6,966 bases of DNA, from IMG/VR virus record IMGVR_UViG_2534682338_000001, positions 1 to 6,966 of that record; one strand, given 5' to 3'. Both the position numbers and the translations under genes were made by a program. How positions within the stretch are numbered: the stretch's first letter is position 1; each line of letters begins with the position of its first letter. This DNA is from a virus (Duplodnaviria > Heunggongvirae > Uroviricota > Caudoviricetes). Under the pieces are notes generated by a model. The model was not told where the DNA came from. It saw only the letters and a program-made list of their open reading frames with translations, and ran no database searches. This document shows positions 1,707 through 6,966 of this stretch, one piece after another.

Positions 1707-3893
1707 ATGAGCACAAAATTTAAAACCGTTATCACCACTGCCGGTGCAGCAAAGCTGGCAGCGGCAACCGCACCGGGAGGGCGGAAGGTCAACATTACCA
1801 CGATGGCCGTCGGGGATGGCGGTGGTAAATTGCCTGTCCCGGATGCCGGGCAGACCGGGCTTATCCACGAAGTCTGGCGACATGCGCTGAACAAAATCAG
1901 TCAGGACAAACGAAACAGTAATTATATTATCGCAGAGCTGGTTATTCCGCCGGAGGTGGGCGGTTTCTGGATGCGTGAGCTTGGCCTGTACGATGATGCG
2001 GGAACGCTAATTGCCGTGGCAAACATGGCCGAAAGTTATAAACCAGCTCTTGCCGAAGGCTCAGGGCGTTCGCAGACCTGTCGCATGGTCATCATCGTCA
2101 GCAGTGTGGCCTCAGTGGAGCTGACCATTGACACCACAACGGTGATGGCGACGCAGGATTACGTTGATGACAAAATTGCAGAGCACGAACAGTCACGACG
2201 TCACCCGGACGCTTCGCTGACCGCAAAAGGTTTTACTCAGTTAAGCAGTGCGACCAACAGCACGTCTGAAACACTGGCCGCAACGCCGAAAGCGGTAAAG
2301 GCCGCGTATGACCTTGCTAACGGGAAATATACCGCACAGGACGCCACCACAGCGCGAAAAGGCCTTGTTCAGCTGAGTAGCGCCATCAACAGCGATTCTG
2401 AAACGCTTGCGGCAACGCCAAAGGCGGTTAAGACAGCGTATGACCTTGCTAACAGGAAATACACTGCACAGGATGCCACCACAGCGCGAAAAGGTCTTGT
2501 CCAGCTAAGTAGCGCCACCAACAGTGATTCTGAAACGCTGGCCGCAACATCAAAAGCGGTGAAGTCTGCCTATGACAATGCTGAAAAACGTCTTCAGAAA
2601 GATCAGAATGGTGCGGATATTCCGGGAAAGGATACCTTCACGAAAAATATCGGTGCCTGTCGTGCTTATAGCGGCGCTTTGAGCACTGAAGCCGGAAACT
2701 GGACAACCGCTCAGTTTATTGAATGGCTGGATTCCCGTGGTGCATTTAATCATCCGTACTGGATGTGCAAAGGCTCCTGGTCATATGCAAATAACAAAAT
2801 CATTACGGATACCGGATGTGGTGATATCCACCTGGCTGGTTGTGTCGTCGAGGTCATGGGAACTAAATCTGCAATCACTATCCGAGTGACCACACCGACA
2901 ACATCAAGCGGTGGCGGTACAACCAGCGCACAATTCACTTACATTAATCATGGGGACGGCTACTCCCCCGGCTGGCGTCGTGACTGGAATCGTCAGGGCG
3001 ACGCAATGACCGGAACGATTAATCAGGACGGTGGAAGCCAGAATGCCTATATGTCTACGGCCTTATGTTCAGGCACAAGAGGCGGCAAAAAATATCTCAG
3101 AAAGTTTCGTGGTGGAGAAGGAGACACTATCTGGCATGAAACAGTACAGGGCGGGGTAGTTCGTTGGGCGACTGGTAATACTGATGCTCAGGAAGAATTA
3201 TCACTCAGCTCCGCTTATGGTCTCCGTTCAAGAGGTGAGATTACATCACTCAGTGCTAATGGTCTGCGCATTGCTTATGGCAATTATGGTTTCTTTATCA
3301 GGAATGATGGCAGCAGCACTTATTTTATGTTGACTAAATCAGGTGACAGATTAGGAACTTATAATAATTTAAGACCGCTGATTATAAATGATGCCACTGG
3401 TGCTGTATCAATGGGGCATGGCCTGAATGTTACTGGTGATATTGTCTCAAGTACCAAAGTACGTGCCGGTAGCGGGAAAAAATTCACGGTCAGCAGCAGT
3501 AATACATCCACGAAGGAAGCCGCATTCAATTTGTGGGGAAACTCAAGTCGTCCGGTGGTGGCTGAATTAGGTGATGATGCAGGCTGGCATTTTTACAGTC
3601 AGAGAAATACAGATAACAGCATCACTTTTGCTGTTAACGGGCAGGTATCACCATCTAACTATGGCAACTTTGATTCACGCTATGTCCGGGATATCCGGCT
3701 TGGTGGTGCTGCCACATACAAACCTGCGAACAATGGCATGACATGGACACATCAGGCACCGTCCGGGTGTGTATATTCCGGCATTATTGTTCAGGATACC
3801 GGCTCAAACTCTGCCGATAACATTGGTGGCATATATTACAGACCGGTGCAGAAATACATTAACGGGACATGGTATAACGTAGCGCAGGTATAA
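1707..3893 (+). CDS. H: Tail fibre protein H (P2 gpH family): conserved high-GC N-terminal baseplate-attachment part, internal tandem repeats, divergent low-GC C-terminal receptor-binding part
   Basis: 728-aa ORF with N-terminus MSTKFKTVITTAGAAKLAAATAPGGRKVNITTMAVGDGGGKLPVPDAG.. typical of P2-like gpH; SD GAGG upstream; the SETLAATPKAVKxAYD motif recurs as in many tail fibres; sample-line GC drops from about 68% (line 1741) to about 40% (lines 3301, 3361). Confidence 0.9.
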   Translation: MSTKFKTVITTAGAAKLAAATAPGGRKVNITTMAVGDGGGKLPVPDAGQTGLIHEVWRHALNKISQDKRNSNYIIAELVIPPEVGGFWMRELGLYDDAGTLIAVANMAESYKPALAEGSGRSQTCRMVIIVSSVASVELTIDTTTVMATQDYVDDKIAEHEQSRRHPDASLTAKGFTQLSSATNSTSETLAATPKAVKAAYDLANGKYTAQDATTARKGLVQLSSAINSDSETLAATPKAVKTAYDLANRKYTAQDATTARKGLVQLSSATNSDSETLAATSKAVKSAYDNAEKRLQKDQNGADIPGKDTFTKNIGACRAYSGALSTEAGNWTTAQFIEWLDSRGAFNHPYWMCKGSWSYANNKIITDTGCGDIHLAGCVVEVMGTKSAITIRVTTPTTSSGGGTTSAQFTYINHGDGYSPGWRRDWNRQGDAMTGTINQDGGSQNAYMSTALCSGTRGGKKYLRKFRGGEGDTIWHETVQGGVVRWATGNTDAQEELSLSSAYGLRSRGEITSLSANGLRIAYGNYGFFIRNDGSSTYFMLTKSGDRLGTYNNLRPLIINDATGAVSMGHGLNVTGDIVSSTKVRAGSGKKFTVSSSNTSTKEAAFNLWGNSSRPVVAELGDDAGWHFYSQRNTDNSITFAVNGQVSPSNYGNFDSRYVRDIRLGGAATYKPANNGMTWTHQAPSGCVYSGIIVQDTGSNSADNIGGIYYRPVQKYINGTWYNVAQV
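2220..2580 (+). repeat. About 2.6 copies of a diverged 132-bp (44-codon) in-frame tandem repeat inside H
   Basis: Unit starts (CAG Gln codons) at 2238, 2370 and 2502, exactly 132 nt apart. Encoded units: QLSSATNSTSETLAATPKAVKAAYDLANGKYTAQDATTARKGLV / QLSSAINSDSETLAATPKAVKTAYDLANRKYTAQDATTARKGLV / QLSSATNSDSETLAATSKAVKSAYDNAEKR.. (third partial). Nucleotide identity between units is roughly 80-85% by eye. Confidence 0.8.
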
Positions 3894-3896
3894 TTT

Positions 3897-4424
3897 ATGC
3901 AGCATTTGATAAATATAATGGCGGGTAATCCAAAAACAGTTGAACAATATCAATTGACAAAGGGCTTTGATGTTGTCTGGTTTTTTACAGAAGATGGTAA
4001 GAACTGGTACGAAGAACAAAAGTATTTTGCTGATGACACGATAAAAATAGCGTACGACAAAGATAATATCATCCGCTATGTGGAAAAGGATGTGACAGCT
4101 ATCAGACCGGATGGATTAAGTGTGGTTGAAGTGGCGGATATTACTGCTAACCGACGGGCGGATATTTCAGGGGGCTGGATGTTTAAGGACGGCAAAGTGA
4201 TTAAACGCATTTATACGGCGGAGGAATTACAGCAGCAGGCAGAAATTCGGAAAGCCAGACTTCTTGCAGATGCTGAATCCGTGATTTTGCCGCTGGAGCG
4301 CGCGGTCAGACTGAACATGGCAACAGAGGAGGAGCGCACACGGCTGGAGGCTTGGGAACGCTACAGCGTTCTGGTCAGTCGTGTGGATCCTGCAAATCCT
4401 GAATGGCCGGAAATGCCGCAATAA
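3897..4424 (+). CDS. G: Tail fibre assembly chaperone G (P2 gpG / Tfa family)
   Basis: 175-aa ORF starting 3 nt after the H stop, matching the P2 gpG length; C-terminus ..[43 protein letters not shown] is recognisable as gpG. The N-terminal third is low GC (about 32% on line 3901) and the C-terminal part high GC (about 57% on line 4261), suggesting mosaic exchange together with the H distal domain. Confidence 0.88.
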
Positions 4425-4485
4425 GTTGTATGAACTCTGGTGTGAGCTTACACATCTATGGCACAGAGTAAAGCCTAATCTGACA

Positions 4486-4513
4486 GTCCGCTCTGTGCCA
4501 GAAGCGGACTTTA
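4486..4513 (+). terminator. Candidate weak intrinsic terminator downstream of G
   Basis: 6-bp stem GTCCGC (4486-4491) / GCGGAC (4504-4509) with a 12-nt loop, followed by TTT. It overlaps a second inverted repeat, GGCACAGAG (4460-4468) / CTCTGTGCC (4491-4499). The T-tract is short, so terminator function is uncertain. Confidence 0.3.
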
Positions 4514-4551: not shown

Positions 4552-4590
4552 TTGAAACATTTGTACGTAAATGTTAGTTGTATTTAGATA
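4552..4590 (+). promoter_or_regulatory. Candidate sigma70-type promoter for the cargo gene
   Basis: TTGAAA at 4552-4557 is a good -35 hexamer, followed by AT-rich sequence with only poor -10 candidates (for example TAGATA at about 4585-4590). Position is about 40-80 nt upstream of the cargo start. Not verified. Confidence 0.25.
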
Positions 4591-4618
4591 AGGTCGTAGG
4601 ATATTTTATTCACATAAA

Positions 4619-5101
4619 ATGGAGTTTAATATGGAAGACTCTTGTAAGAAAAAAATAATGGTTGTTGTTGGAGCTGGCGCTTCGGTTGAATTAGGTATGC
4701 CAAGTGTCAGTGAGATAGATAAGCTGTTTTCGTTATGGGCGAAAGATGGTTACACTTTAGCTAGTGATAAAGATAAAAGTTTGTATTGCTACATTAAGGA
4801 GGAGGTTAATCGTCATTATGGATTGAATCCAAAAAAAGAATTAAGAAAAGAAACTAATTTTGAAGAGTTATTATATGTAATCCTTAATTTATCAGCAGCC
4901 TTGGGGGATAATAACTACAATTTTCCAATGAATGCATTCTGGGGAATAAGGGAACTTCCAAAAATAATTGGAGTTAATGGTGAGAAGTCGGTTGATGGAA
5001 ATGATTTAAGGCACCTTTACTCAAGGTTGAATGATAAACTAATTGGGGAATTTAGAGAGCGTTGTAAAATCGTTAAGGAGGAAAAAAAGAGGAGTTTTTA
5101 G
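4619..5101 (+). CDS. SIR2-like NAD-binding protein, N-terminal fragment (Rossmann GAGAS..GMP motif) of a frame-disrupted single gene; likely true start is the ATG at 4631
   Basis: Translation ..KKKIMVVVGAGASVELGMPSVSEIDKLF.. carries the hydrophobic-GAGxS-x3-GxP signature of the sirtuin/DHS-like NAD-binding fold. GGAG at 4621-4624 sits 6 nt before the ATG at 4631, while the ATG at 4619 has no SD. GC is about 28-38% on sample lines. The ORF ends at TAG 5099-5101 immediately after an A7 tract (5082-5088), while the SIR2 domain continues in frame +1. Confidence 0.7.
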   Translation: MEFNMEDSCKKKIMVVVGAGASVELGMPSVSEIDKLFSLWAKDGYTLASDKDKSLYCYIKEEVNRHYGLNPKKELRKETNFEELLYVILNLSAALGDNNYNFPMNAFWGIRELPKIIGVNGEKSVDGNDLRHLYSRLNDKLIGEFRERCKIVKEEKKRSF

Positions 5102-5886
5102 TTTTTGAAAAATTTATTAACCAACTTAATAATGACTATGACGTTGCTTTTATTACATTAAATTATGACAATCTTATAACTCAAGCTTGTCCAACTCTTT
5201 TTACTGGCTTTAGCAAAAGTACTGGCTTATTTGAAGAGGCAAGTGTTTATGCACAGTCTAAGTGGGGTTTAATTTATCATCTGCATGGTTCAGTTCACTT
5301 TGATATGCAAGGAACCCACTCAGATATGCATGCTGTCAAATGGAATAATGACTTACACTCTGAATTCAATCAGAATGCTTTTGGTAGAAACTCACAAAAT
5401 ACCTCTGAAGGTATAAGCATACCAACCTCGGCAATTGTCGCTGGTTACGCCAAAACCAGTCAGATTCAGCGGGTACCATTCCGTACTTATTACTCGAAGA
5501 TAGATGAGATTGCTTATAAAGCAGATGCTTATTTGTTTTTAGGGTATGGGTTCAATGATCCTCATCTAAATAACTCCCTGCATTCAATAAGAGATGGTAA
5601 ACATAATAAACCAGTCGTTATTATAGACTGGGCATCAGACACCCAAGACCCGATGCGGTTTAGACACGATGAGTGGTCTATAAATCTATGTAAGACTGTT
5701 CGTTCTAATGCTAATGAAATGGCAACGAGAAATTATAAGCACTCGGCTCCAGAAATAAGTAAATTAAAATCCACAGGAGCATTTGAAGTATCTTGCAATC
5801 CAGATTACCCATTATCAATTTGGTATGGTGGTTTTATACAAGCCTGCTCAAATTTTGATAAAATAAAATATGAATTAGGCATGTAA
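5077..5886 (+). CDS. SIR2-like protein, C-terminal part (catalytic Asn and His motifs plus GYGFND motif), reading frame open from 5077; same gene as 4619-5101, separated by a frameshift
   Basis: The frame of ORF 5305-5886 is open back to 5077 (stop TAA at 5074-5076) and reads GGKKEEFLVFEKFINQLNNDYDVAFITLNYDNLITQACPTLFTGFSKSTGLFEEASVYAQSKWGLIYHLHGSVHFDMQGTH.. The Asn codon in TLNYD is at 5161-5163 and the His codon in HLHG at 5284-5286, 41 residues apart, matching the roughly 38-40 residue Asn-to-His spacing I recall for defence SIR2 domains (ThsA, DSR2). ..AYLFLGYGFNDPHL.. at about 5540-5565 resembles the distal SIR2-like motif. There is no ATG between 5077 and 5305, so this segment cannot be translated alone. 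Confidence 0.7.
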   Translation, partial: GGKKEEFLVFEKFINQLNNDYDVAFITLNYDNLITQACPTLFTGFSKSTGLFEEASVYAQSKWGLIYHLHGSVHFDMQGTHSDMHAVKWNNDLHSEFNQNAFGRNSQNTSEGISIPTSAIVAGYAKTSQIQRVPFRTYYSKIDEIAYKADAYLFLGYGFNDPHLNNSLHSIRDGKHNKPVVIIDWASDTQDPMRFRHDEWSINLCKTVRSNANEMATRNYKHSAPEISKLKSTGAFEVSCNPDYPLSIWYGGFIQACSNFDKIKYELGM

Positions 5887-5940
5887 GCAATAAATTAGTT
5901 TATGTTAGTTAAGAGTAGCCTGGGGATGTCTGGCCTAGTC

Positions 5941-5968
5941 AAAAGCGGATTTTGTCATGTCCGCTTTT
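5941..5968. terminator. Perfect 9-bp inverted repeat hairpin (AAAAGCGGA / TCCGCTTTT, 10-nt loop); possible weak bidirectional terminator after the cargo gene
   Basis: AAAAGCGGA at 5941-5949 pairs perfectly with TCCGCTTTT at 5960-5968. The A/T-run symmetry would give a U-tract on either strand; the GC core is only 4 bp, so strength is doubtful. Confidence 0.35.
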
Positions 5969-6051
5969 CGCTCAAAGCAGACTGTCAGAATTGATAGCGT
6001 TTGGGCTATGTAAATTGTCAGTCGGAAAATGAGTGAGTACAAATCAGGACA

Positions 6052-6078
6052 GGCGGGCGAATTGCCCGCCTTTTCTTT
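6052..6078 (+). terminator. Rho-independent terminator separating the cargo unit from the sheath promoter
   Basis: GGCGGGC (6052-6058), loop GAATT, GCCCGCC (6064-6070), followed by TTTTCTTT (6071-6078): a GC-rich 7-bp stem plus T-tract. Confidence 0.7.
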
Positions 6079-6174: not shown

Positions 6175-6852
6175 ATGAGTGACTATCATCACGGCGTGCA
6201 GGTGCTGGAGATTAACGACGGCACCCGCGTCATGTCCACCGTATCCACCGCCATTGTCGGCATGGTCTGCACGGCCAGCGATGCGGATGCGGAAACCTTC
6301 CCCCTCAATAAACCGGTGCTGATTACCAATGTGCAGAGCGCAATTGCAAATGCCGGTAAAAAAGGCACGCTGGCGGCATCGTTGCAGGCCATCGCCGACC
6401 AGTCAAAACCGGTCACCGTTGTCGTGCGTGTGGAAGACGGCACCGGCGACGACGAGGAAACGAAACTCGCGCAGACCGTTTCCAATATCATCGGCACCAC
6501 TGACGAAAACGGTCAGTACACCGGACTGAAAGCCCTGCTGGCGGCGGAGTCGGTAACCGGTGTTAAACCGCGTATTCTTGGTGTGCCGGGGCTGGATACC
6601 AAAGAGGTGGCTGTTGCACTGGCATCAGTCTGTCAGAAGCTGCGCGCTTTCGGGTATATCAGCGCATGGGGCTGTAAAACCATTTCCGAGGTGAAAGCCT
6701 ACCGCCAGAATTTCAGCCAGCGTGAGCTGATGGTCATCTGGCCGGATTTCCTCGCATGGGATACAGTCAACAGTACCACCGCCACCGCGTATGCCACCGC
6801 CCGTGCGCTGGGTCTGCGTGCCAAAAATCGACCAGGAGCAGGGCTGGCATAA
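6175..6852 (+). CDS. FI: Tail sheath protein FI (P2 gpFI family), 5' portion; the frame is broken from about 6824 and sheath-like coding continues in shifted frames to the window end
   Basis: N-terminus MSDYHHGVQVLEINDGTRVMSTVSTAIVGMVCTASDADAETFPLNKPVLITNVQ.. is recognisable as P2-type sheath. The ORF stops at TAA 6850-6852 after 225 aa, whereas this family is about 390-400 aa. The last 66 nt (6901-6966) are back in the original frame and read ASVFWDLQESGTDADLLNESGV. Confidence 0.85.
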   Translation: MSDYHHGVQVLEINDGTRVMSTVSTAIVGMVCTASDADAETFPLNKPVLITNVQSAIANAGKKGTLAASLQAIADQSKPVTVVVRVEDGTGDDEETKLAQTVSNIIGTTDENGQYTGLKALLAAESVTGVKPRILGVPGLDTKEVAVALASVCQKLRAFGYISAWGCKTISEVKAYRQNFSQRELMVIWPDFLAWDTVNSTTATAYATARALGLRAKNRPGAGLA

Positions 6853-6966
6853 AAACGCTGTCCAAACGTCGGGGTAAAACGGTGTTAACCGGCATCAAGC
6901 GCGTCCGTATTCTGGGATTTGCAGGAGTCCGGTACCGATGCTGACCTGCTTAACGAGTCTGGCGTC

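What the first reader, a model, noticed from the sequence alone, without database searches (positions are those of the whole stretch)
4619..5886. Standalone SIR2-like candidate NADase defence gene carried by the prophage
Read across the frameshift, the locus encodes one protein of about 418 aa with the full sirtuin/DHS-like signature set in the right order and spacing: IMVVVGAGASVELGMPSV near the N-terminus, FITLNYDNL with the catalytic Asn at 5161-5163, IYHLHGS with the His at 5284-5286 exactly 41 residues later, and LFLGYGFNDPHL at about 5540-5565. In characterised defence systems such SIR2 domains deplete NAD+ on phage sensing, but they are usually fused or paired with a sensor (SLOG in ThsA, a long C-terminal domain in DSR, HerA, TIR, pAgo). 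Here the SIR2 domain fills almost the whole protein and no partner ORF is visible in the island, so the trigger mechanism is unexplained. The likely true start is the ATG at 4631, with GGAG 6 nt upstream, rather than 4619.
Basis: partly seen in the sequence, partly recalled or inferred. Interest (0 to 1): 0.85.

Follow-up and report, generated by a model that had tools for sequence, protein, structure and literature searches.

The report
Frameshifted standalone SIR2 gene, P2 prophage
A P2-type prophage carries, in a known slot for anti-phage cargo, a single gene for a small SIR2-type enzyme that probably destroys NAD+ to block rival phages; in this sequence it is split by one missing A, probably a sequencing error, so the find is real but fairly ordinary.

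Summary
Window 4631-5886 encodes a 418-aa SIR2-like protein, split by one missing A in an A-run (A7 at 5082-5088). Near-identical loci in two complete E. coli genomes have A8 and an intact gene, WP_069907393.1, "SIR2 family protein". All four motifs, the catalytic Asn (5161-5163), the His (5284-5286) and the ATG at 4631 check out.

It is truly standalone:
- No neighbour is conserved across 38 loci.
- None of the 150 best relatives listed exceeds 478 aa.
- A 73%-identical Vibrio homologue is a single-gene integron cassette.
- The E. coli cassette, bounded by inverted repeats, also sits in a non-P2 island.

The site, between tail genes G and FI, is the published P2 Z/fun defence hotspot. A single-gene "sole-Sir2" NADase defence of about 440 aa is already reported in a preprint.

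NADase activity and defence are inferred, not shown, and the trigger is unknown. The frameshift is more likely a homopolymer miscall than a real pseudogene, because the same contig's end carries six similar errors. It is not programmed. I class it as a new member of a known kind, of modest interest.

The parts
3897..4424 (+). P2 gpG-type tail fibre assembly gene; left flank, last gene before the cargo slot
   Evidence: Pfam Caudo_TAP, E 1.5e-33. Annotated 'tail fiber assembly protein' in L001 and L002.
4479..4509 (.). Left inverted repeat of the P2 Z/fun cargo slot
   Evidence: 31-nt arm, 84% complementary to 5959-5989. It aligns with the annotated 'left inverted repeat' of P2-EC67, AJ512685.1, after which the cargo differs. 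It is present in 2325 of 5426 complete E. coli genomes.
4621..4624 (+). GGAG ribosome-binding site, 6 nt before the ATG at 4631
   Evidence: Read directly from the sequence. The PGAP start of the intact allele corresponds to 4631.
4631..5101 (+). SIR2 gene, 5' part in the original frame: 156 codons ending at TAG 5099-5101. It carries the GAGxS NAD-binding loop but lacks the catalytic Asn and His.
   Evidence: Translation. On its own it has no Pfam hit. G14 and G16 are invariant in the family.
5082..5088 (+). A7 tract where one A is missing relative to the A8 of the intact allele. In the original frame, 5083-5089 reads A_AAA_AAG.
   Evidence: Alignment to L001 and L002 and the homopolymer list. 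The tract is not conserved in homologues. There is no flanking RNA structure.
5089..5886 (+). SIR2 gene, 3' part in the -1 frame. It holds the catalytic Asn (5161-5163), the His (5284-5286), the GYGFND motif (5533-5568) and the stop TAA at 5884-5886.
   Evidence: Translation and motif coordinates. The Pfam SIR2_2 hit falls in this part.
5959..5989 (.). Right inverted repeat of the cargo slot. It overlaps a hairpin just after the SIR2 stop codon.
   Evidence: Inverted-repeat pair I1. P2-conserved sequence resumes at about 5953-5960. AJ512685.1 annotates a 'right inverted repeat' there.
6051..6071 (+). Terminator-like GC hairpin followed by a T-run, in P2-conserved sequence upstream of FI
   Evidence: Terminator scan: 9 pairs, 7 of them G-C.
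6175..6966 (+). P2 FI tail sheath gene (right flank). It is itself broken in the window by six 1-nt insertions at 6820-6900.
   Evidence: Pfam Phage_sheath_1 and Gp18_domIII_N. Indels listed against L001 and L002. Against the best of 1701 genomes, 792 nt align to 786 nt.

Best explanation
The locus is a one-gene anti-phage cargo ('moron') carried by a P2-like prophage in the Z/fun slot, between tail genes G and FI.

Shown. It encodes a 418-aa protein with a SIR2 fold that has the NAD-binding GAGxS loop and the Asn178/His219 catalytic pair. It has no zinc-binding module, no added sensor domain and no conserved partner gene. Its closest solved relative is the SIR2 subunit of SIR2-HerA.

Inferred. 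In the lysogen the protein sits in a self-inhibited, probably oligomeric, state. Infection by an unrelated phage supplies a cue, either a phage protein or an infection-induced molecule. That cue is sensed by the family-specific parts of the same polypeptide: the helical insertion at about residues 26-169 and/or the conserved C-terminal lobe at about 340-418. The active site then hydrolyses NAD+ to ADP-ribose and nicotinamide. This starves the infected cell and aborts the infection, which protects the prophage's clonal hosts.

In this window the gene is interrupted by the loss of one A from an A8 run. This is more likely a homopolymer miscall in a draft contig (about 0.6) than a real inactivating mutation (about 0.4). 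If it is real, the main product is a 156-aa fragment without the active site. Only a small fraction of full-length protein could then arise by -1 slippage on A_AAA_AAG.
For: - Fold and catalytic residues. Pfam SIR2_2 scores 54.3 bits against a cut-off of 24.5. G14, G16, N178, D180, H219, G220, S221 and G305-F308 are invariant in 74 homologues. The AlphaFold model has pLDDT 93.6 and pTM 0.92.
- Not a deacetylase type. There is no CxxC pair.
- Standalone. The largest shared neighbour cluster covers 4 of 38 loci, at varying offsets. None of the 150 best cluster representatives listed exceeds 478 aa, and the complete ones match end to end. The V. parahaemolyticus homologue sits alone between attC-type repeats. 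The E. coli cargo plus inverted-repeat core recurs at 99.6% identity in a non-P2 island.
- Defence context. The slot between G and FI holds P2 fun and was called a second defence-enriched locus of P2-like phages (PMC9519451). Distant homologues lie beside TIR-TPR, DUF4238 and SIR2-HerA, Shedu, and an MmeI-type enzyme with ATPases next to an integrase.
- Precedent. A single-gene 'sole-Sir2' of about 440 aa converts NAD+ to ADPR, and a close homologue of it protects E. coli from T2 and T4 (bioRxiv 10.1101/2024.12.27.630466).
- Frameshift as miscall. A8 is intact in both complete genomes, and the exact 418-aa protein is indexed in 246 blocks of the assembly collection. The window's truncated products are absent from about 15 billion proteins. 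A8 would be the longest homopolymer in the region. The same contig has six 1-nt insertions at 6820-6900 that no complete genome shares.
Against: - No experiment on this protein or its family was available, so NADase activity, toxicity and phage protection all rest on analogy.
- The closest solved relative, PsSIR2, is an auto-inhibited dodecamer that needs HerA to switch on its NADase (PMC11472057). A HerA-less relative might be inactive, or might work differently.
- Sequence similarity to every characterised defence SIR2 is weak. The best PADLOC hits are about 64 bits to generic SIR2 and Aga_SIR2 models. The score against NCBIfam SIR2_antiphage is 12 bits against a cut-off of 500.
- The gene is rare: 2 of 5426 complete E. 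coli genomes and none of 50,697 phage records.
- The promoter scan found no sigma-70-like site upstream of the gene.
- Apart from the low-quality end, the contig has only this one indel, so a genuine mutation cannot be excluded.
Confidence: 0.65

Rival explanations
1. The missing A is real. In this strain the SIR2 gene is a dead pseudogene in a decaying prophage and does nothing.
For: - The frameshift removes Asn178 and His219 from the main product.
- The tail sheath gene in the same window is also out of frame.
- Prophages with this cargo do decay elsewhere: IS21 sits next to the tape-measure gene, whose product is shortened to 774 aa, in L001 and L015, and IS elements abut the prophage in L014 and L016.
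- A toxic NADase gene would be under pressure to be lost.
Against: - The sheath indels are six single-base insertions within 80 bp at the contig end. That looks like poor sequence, not mutation, and none of 1701 genomes with a related sheath gene shares them.
- The rest of the window has no indel and only 2-3 substitutions before position 6249.
- The one internal indel falls in what would be the longest homopolymer.
- The truncated products occur in no other assembly.
Confidence: 0.35
2. The protein is an active SIR2 defence enzyme but does not act by bulk NAD+ depletion. Instead it uses NAD+ to ADP-ribosylate a protein or nucleic acid, or it has a second activity such as DNA cleavage.
For: [quoted passage not shown]
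Against: - Characterised defence SIR2 relatives in the hit list with a documented mechanism in the papers read here (SIR2-HerA, DSR2) consume NAD+; the same is commonly reported for ThsA, KomC and Avs5 (my knowledge, not checked here).
- 'sole-Sir2' yields ADPR from NAD+ in vitro.
- No nuclease motif or extra domain was detected.
Confidence: 0.15
3. The SIR2 protein is only an effector. It needs a sensor or activator encoded elsewhere, for example a HerA-like ATPase, a TIR signal producer, or the 414-aa ATP-binding protein carried between gpS and gpV of the same prophage.
For: - The closest structural relative depends on HerA.
- The same prophage carries a second cargo gene, a 414-aa 'ATP-binding protein' on the opposite strand about 5 kb upstream.
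- One distant homologue lies about 1 kb from a SIR2-HerA pair.
Against: - The identical gene occurs without that prophage, in a CP4-like island (L012).
- A 73% homologue is a lone integron cassette.
- No neighbour is shared beyond 4 of 38 loci.
- The SIR2-HerA pair in L019 has its own 544-aa SIR2.
Confidence: 0.1
4. The gene is prophage cargo with a non-defence role, such as modifying host metabolism or acting as a protein deacylase (lysogenic conversion).
For: - P2 Z-region cargo has been annotated as 'putative lysogenic conversion protein' (AJ512685.1).
- Sirtuins in general are deacylases.
Against: - The protein has no zinc module.
- It matches Pfam SIR2_2 rather than the sirtuin deacetylase family.
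- It recurs in defence islands and mobile elements.
Confidence: 0.08
5. The A7 allele is a programmed -1 ribosomal frameshift, or a phase-variable ON/OFF switch, that keeps a toxic enzyme at low level.
For: - In the original frame, 5083-5089 reads A_AAA_AAG. From my own knowledge, this is the slippery heptamer used by E. coli dnaX and IS911.
- A -1 slip there yields exactly the 418-aa sequence of the A8 allele.
- The 0-frame stop lies three codons downstream.
Against: - The A-tract and the local peptide (KEEKKEEF) are not conserved in 72-73% identical homologues.
- The flanking RNA folds no better than shuffled sequence (z +0.57).
- The SD-like AGGAGG abuts the heptamer rather than lying about 10 nt upstream.
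- The A7 allele occurs in no other assembly, whereas A8 is widespread.
Confidence: 0.03

Closest known systems
SIR2 subunit of the SIR2-HerA (Nezha) anti-phage system (PDB 8w9l, 8yhx, 8j4u, 8uae)
   Same: - It has a similar size (360-400 aa).
- It shares the catalytic Asn/His, the lack of a zinc module and a helical small domain inserted into the Rossmann fold.
- It is the only PDB sequence hit with E below 0.001 (8w9l, E 4e-4).
   Different: - There is no HerA gene next to it, here or in 38 related loci.
- Sequence identity in the structural alignments is only 11-20%.
- It scores 12 bits against the NCBIfam SIR2_antiphage cut-off of 500.
- PsSIR2 needs HerA to activate its NADase, so the control of this protein must differ.
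'sole-Sir2' single-gene system (bioRxiv 10.1101/2024.12.27.630466)
   Same: - It is a single protein of about 440 aa that consists of little more than a Sir2-like domain.
- The recognisable Sir2 match is in the C-terminal half, as with the Pfam hit here at residues 173-339.
- The preprint reports NAD+ to ADPR conversion in vitro, and protection from T2 and T4 by a close homologue.
   Different: - It was found inside type I-C cas operons under crlRNA control. No cas genes were seen near the homologues whose annotated gene neighbourhoods were examined here.
- Its sequences are not held in the paper library, so it could not be tested whether the two are one family.
Cargo of the P2 Z/fun hotspot (P2 fun; three PD systems of Vassallo et al. 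2022; P2-EC67 ORF1)
   Same: - The cargo occupies the same slot, between tail fibre assembly gene G and sheath gene FI.
- It is flanked by the same inverted repeats.
- The slot is described as a defence-enriched locus (PMC9519451).
   Different: - The cargo gene itself is unrelated. It matches no PD-T4, PD-T7 or PD-lambda model in PADLOC.
- P2-EC67 carries a different ORF after the shared left repeat.
ThsA (Thoeris), DSR2, Avs5 (SIR2-STAND), KomC (Kongming) and SIR2-APAZ of short pAgo systems
   Different: Each of those has a sensor module or a partner: SLOG with ThsB, a long C-terminal domain, a STAND NTPase, KomA/B, or APAZ with pAgo. None is present here.

Membership tests
SIR2_2 (Pfam PF13289), the DHS-like NAD-binding SIR2 superfamily | Profile match above the curated cut-off | tested here: met
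   The repaired protein scores 54.3 bits against a cut-off of 24.5, E 2e-14, over residues 173-339. The 3' fragment alone scores 25.9 bits.
SIR2_2 (Pfam PF13289), the DHS-like NAD-binding SIR2 superfamily | Catalytic Asn and His, plus the glycine-rich NAD loop | tested here: met
   N178, H219, G14 and G16 are invariant in 74 family members. Window codons 5161-5163 and 5284-5286 encode the Asn and His.
SIR2_2 (Pfam PF13289), the DHS-like NAD-binding SIR2 superfamily | Rossmann-type sirtuin fold | tested here: met
   [not shown]
Canonical sirtuin protein deacylases | Zinc-binding module with two CxxC pairs | tested here: not met
   The protein has seven scattered Cys residues and no CxxC pair.
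SIR2-HerA (Nezha) | Adjacent HerA-type ATPase gene | tested here: not met
   There is no other ORF in the island, and no conserved neighbour in 38 loci.
SIR2-HerA (Nezha) | Match to the SIR2_antiphage equivalog (NCBIfam NF042942) | tested here: not met
   12.2 bits against a cut-off of 500.
SIR2-HerA (Nezha) | Fold of the SIR2 subunit | tested here: met
   [not shown]
Thoeris ThsA | C-terminal SLOG domain and a neighbouring TIR protein (ThsB) | tested here: not met
   ThsA models match only about 24 residues, at E 1.7e-4 or worse. There is no SLOG hit in Pfam and no neighbouring ORF.
Defence-associated sirtuins DSR1/DSR2 | N-terminal SIR2 domain followed by a long C-terminal sensor domain (about 1000 aa in all) | tested here: not met
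   The protein is 418 aa. No Dsr model appears among the PADLOC hits at E up to 1. None of the 150 best relatives listed exceeds 478 aa.
Short pAgo SIR2-APAZ (SPARSA) | APAZ domain and an adjacent pAgo gene | tested here: not met
   Only a weak Aga_SIR2 match over the SIR2 part, at 63.5 bits. There is no partner ORF.
sole-Sir2 (CRISPR-supervised single-gene SIR2) | Single gene of about 440 aa made of little more than a Sir2-like domain | tested here: met
   The protein is 418 aa. Complete family members range from about 390 to about 478 aa, and there is no partner.
sole-Sir2 (CRISPR-supervised single-gene SIR2) | Sequence relatedness to the published sole-Sir2 proteins | not testable with these tools
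   The preprint's sequences (Supplementary Data 1) are not held.
P2 Z/fun hotspot cargo | Location between G and FI, bounded by the conserved inverted repeats | tested here: met
   
Programmed -1 ribosomal frameshift site | Slippery heptamer conserved among homologues, with a stimulatory element | tested here: not met
   The heptamer exists only in this A7 allele. The tract is absent from homologues. There is no RNA structure (z +0.57).
Anti-phage NADase (functional class) | NAD+ hydrolysis triggered by infection, and a reduced efficiency of plating | not testable with these tools
   This needs wet-lab assays. Only analogy to characterised relatives is available.

The most novel reading that the evidence does not exclude
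This family of about 415 aa is a fully autonomous SIR2 immune protein. On this reading it branched from the SIR2-HerA type of SIR2, dispensed with HerA, and both senses infection and kills through one compact polypeptide. That would make it one of the smallest self-contained NADase defences, small enough to travel as a single integron cassette or as cargo in a prophage slot bounded by inverted repeats. A less likely add-on is that the A7 allele is real and is kept leaky by -1 slippage on A_AAA_AAG.
Probability: 0.4. Interest if true: 0.5.

Novelty: new member of a known kind. Interest (0 to 1): 0.3.

Why it matters
If the intact allele defends on its own, it gives a minimal model for how a SIR2 NADase is kept silent and then switched on without HerA, SLOG, STAND, APAZ or a long sensor domain. 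Its position in the P2 Z/fun slot, and as a Vibrio integron cassette, adds to the picture of small defence genes moving as single-gene cassettes. For this particular window the practical point is smaller. The 'frameshift' is a one-base difference in a homopolymer and is probably a sequencing error. The gene is already annotated in RefSeq, and both the architecture and the hotspot have precedents.

Tried and rejected
- Programmed -1 frameshift or contingency tract. I rejected it because the tract is not conserved, there is no RNA structure, and A8 is the common allele.
- Partner gene search. I clustered six-frame ORFs within 4 kb either side of the gene in 38 loci. Nothing was shared beyond 4 loci. 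Gene tables of the annotated contexts showed no recurring neighbour.
- cas-operon association, as reported for sole-Sir2.
- Looking for other assemblies with the A7 allele. The exact truncated products are absent from the collection. The one contig that shares the 193-aa C-terminal ORF (L017) has different, multiple homopolymer deletions and is itself error-prone.
- Deposited phage genomes. There was no DNA or protein match. Plasmids gave only distant SIR2 proteins (no more than about 28% identity over most of the length) in rhizobia and other soil proteobacteria.
- Rfam. Nothing in the window.
- Promoter scan. No sigma-70-like site passed the threshold upstream of 4631, so expression signals remain unassigned.
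- Literature search for the accession, or for a named system covering this family. Only sole-Sir2 turned up.
Full report
**Setting**

The window is the late (tail) region of a P2-like prophage of E. coli. Its ORFs are baseplate J (265-1173), gpI (1166-1696), tail fibre H (1707-3893), tail fibre assembly G (3897-4424) and tail sheath FI (from 6175). They match the annotated genes of two complete genomes at 99.5% identity. Between G and FI lies a 1.7-kb stretch of 32-41% G+C, set in a 55-60% G+C background. This stretch is the finding.

- An ORF runs 4619-5101, and the -1 frame continues open to 5886.
- All four motifs are present in the stated order. Asn is at 5161-5163 and His at 5284-5286, 41 codons apart.
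- GGAG precedes the ATG at 4631 by 6 nt. NCBI's pipeline starts the intact gene at the equivalent position, giving 418 aa: WP_069907393.1, 'SIR2 family protein'.

**The frameshift**

- Across window 4560-5900, the only difference from NZ_CP195389.1 and NZ_CP159455.1 is one missing A. The window has A7 at 5082-5088; those genomes have A8.
- A8 would be the longest homopolymer in the window.
- The exact intact protein is indexed in 246 blocks of the public assembly collection.
- Neither truncated product of the window exists among about 15 billion proteins.
- The last 150 bases of the window carry six single-base insertions in short A or C runs. These break the essential sheath gene. No complete genome shares them: 792 nt align to 786 nt in the best of 1701 genomes. 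The contig therefore has homopolymer-type errors.
- I judge the A7 to be a miscall (about 0.6) rather than a true mutation (about 0.4). Only reads can settle this.

**Is the frameshift programmed? No**

- In the original frame, 5083-5089 reads A_AAA_AAG. From my own knowledge, this is the heptamer used for -1 frameshifting in dnaX and IS911. A -1 slip there would recreate exactly the 418-aa sequence.
- However, any A8-to-A7 loss in this codon phase creates that heptamer.
- The tract and its peptide (KEEKKEEF) are not conserved in homologues of 72-73% identity.
- The surrounding RNA folds no better than shuffled sequence (z +0.57).
- At most, a real A7 allele would be slightly leaky.

**What the protein is**

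- In PADLOC it hits only generic SIR2 and pAgo-associated SIR2 models, at about 64 bits. It hits none of the Dsr or PD-T4/T7/lambda models, and its only ThsA hits are marginal (about 24 residues, E 1.7e-4 or worse).
- It scores 12 bits against the NCBIfam SIR2-HerA equivalog, whose cut-off is 500.
- Among 74 aligned homologues of 40-76% identity, G14, G16, N178, D180, H219, G220, S221 and the GYGF motif (305-308) are invariant. The last 75 residues are also well conserved.
- There is no CxxC pair, so the protein lacks the zinc module of deacetylase sirtuins.
- AlphaFold gives a confident single-body model, with pLDDT 93.6 and pTM 0.92.
- That closest relative is an auto-inhibited dodecamer whose NADase is switched on by HerA (PMC11472057).

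**It is standalone**

- The island holds no second credible ORF.
- A profile search of 1.84 billion cluster representatives finds 250 relatives at E up to 1e-30. The complete ones among the best 150 match end to end, and none exceeds 478 aa. There are therefore no sensor-fused forms.
- I clustered all ORFs within 4 kb either side of the gene in 38 distinct loci. The most widely shared neighbour occurs in only 4 loci, at varying distance and orientation.
- In Vibrio parahaemolyticus, a 73%-identical homologue sits alone between two attC-type repeats of a chromosomal integron array (L003 5841-5977 and 7261-7397).
- In E. coli the cargo is bounded by 31-nt imperfect inverted repeats at 4479-4509 and 5959-5989. 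The segment 4475-5988 recurs at 99.6% identity in a CP4-like island unrelated to P2 (L012).

**Context points to defence**

- The inverted repeats are the ones annotated in GenBank AJ512685.1 around a different cargo in the P2-EC67 'Z-region'. The left one is present in 2325 of 5426 complete E. coli genomes.
[quoted passage not shown] From my own knowledge of the P2 map, fun (Z) lies between G and FI, which matches the 'Z-region' label and shared repeats of AJ512685.1, so I take this to be the same slot.
- More distant homologues lie next to a TIR-TPR protein, DUF4238 and a SIR2-HerA pair. Others lie next to Shedu, next to an integrase, an MmeI-type enzyme, a DEAD helicase and AAA ATPases, or inside other mobile elements.

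**Mechanism**

Shown:
- a SIR2 fold with an intact catalytic pair;
- no partner gene and no added domain;
- carriage as mobile single-gene cargo in defence-rich places.

Inferred, from characterised SIR2 defence proteins and from the 'sole-Sir2' preprint, whose protein of about 440 aa converts NAD+ to ADPR and whose close homologue protects against T2 and T4:
- The protein is kept inactive in the lysogen, probably as an oligomer.
- It is switched on by a cue from an infecting phage. The cue is sensed by the family-specific helical insertion (about residues 26-169) or by the C-terminal lobe (about 340-418).
- It then hydrolyses NAD+ and aborts the infection.

Confidence in the whole chain is about 0.65.

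**Comparison and novelty**

By fold the protein works like a HerA-less version of the SIR2-HerA SIR2. It is not a member of that system, nor of Thoeris, DSR, Avs5, Kongming or SPARSA, because each has a defining partner or domain that was tested here and not found. It fits the architecture of sole-Sir2, but sequence relatedness could not be tested because the sequences are not held. The gene is already named in RefSeq, the slot is a published hotspot, and a single-gene SIR2 defence has precedent. I therefore class it as a new member of a known kind. It is of modest interest: a good candidate for a minimal SIR2 defence, but not a surprise.

Noticed in passing
window 4479-4509 and 5959-5989; L012 7845-9359: The SIR2 cargo is bounded by 31-nt imperfect inverted repeats. 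They are the same repeats annotated around a different cargo in P2-EC67 (AJ512685.1). The repeat core plus cargo recurs at 99.6% identity in a CP4-like island outside any P2 prophage. This suggests cassette exchange through these repeats.
   Followed up: partly
window 6820-6900: Six single-base insertions, in short A or C runs within 80 bp, break the tail sheath gene FI (the ORF stops at 6852). None of the 1701 complete genomes with a related sheath gene has them. This looks like a low-quality contig end.
   Followed up: yes
L003 5841-5977 and 7261-7397 (V. parahaemolyticus CP196793.1): The 73%-identical homologue is a single-gene cassette between attC-type repeats (TAACAAA...GCGTTAG) in a chromosomal integron array. 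The array also holds acetyltransferase, HEPN_RiboL-PSP and NTP_transf_6 cassettes.
   Followed up: partly
L001 1-615 and L010 1300-2544 (outside the window, about 5 kb upstream): The same prophage carries a second cargo gene: a 414-aa 'ATP-binding protein' with no Pfam hit, on the opposite strand between tail completion gene S and baseplate gene V. It may be another defence candidate.
   Followed up: no
window 2225-2582 (inside tail fibre gene H): There are three tandem copies of a unit of about 131 nt (about 44 aa; motif ...LSSATNS[DT]SETLAATPKAVK.AYDLAN.KYTAQDATTARKG...). They showed up as internal self-matches in BLAST.
   Followed up: no
L017 (Logan SRR15989034 contig, 2317 nt): Another assembly of the same SIR2 gene shows several different homopolymer deletions (A7 to A6, a 2-nt gap in the central A-run, and T5 to T4). 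This shows how easily the gene's A/T runs are miscalled.
   Followed up: yes
L001 10016-12318 (NZ_CP195389.1): In one of the two complete genomes with the intact SIR2 gene, an IS21-family element (ISEc12, istAB) lies just upstream of the tape-measure gene, whose product is shortened to 774 aa (815 aa in L002). That prophage copy is therefore probably defective although its cargo is intact.
   Followed up: no
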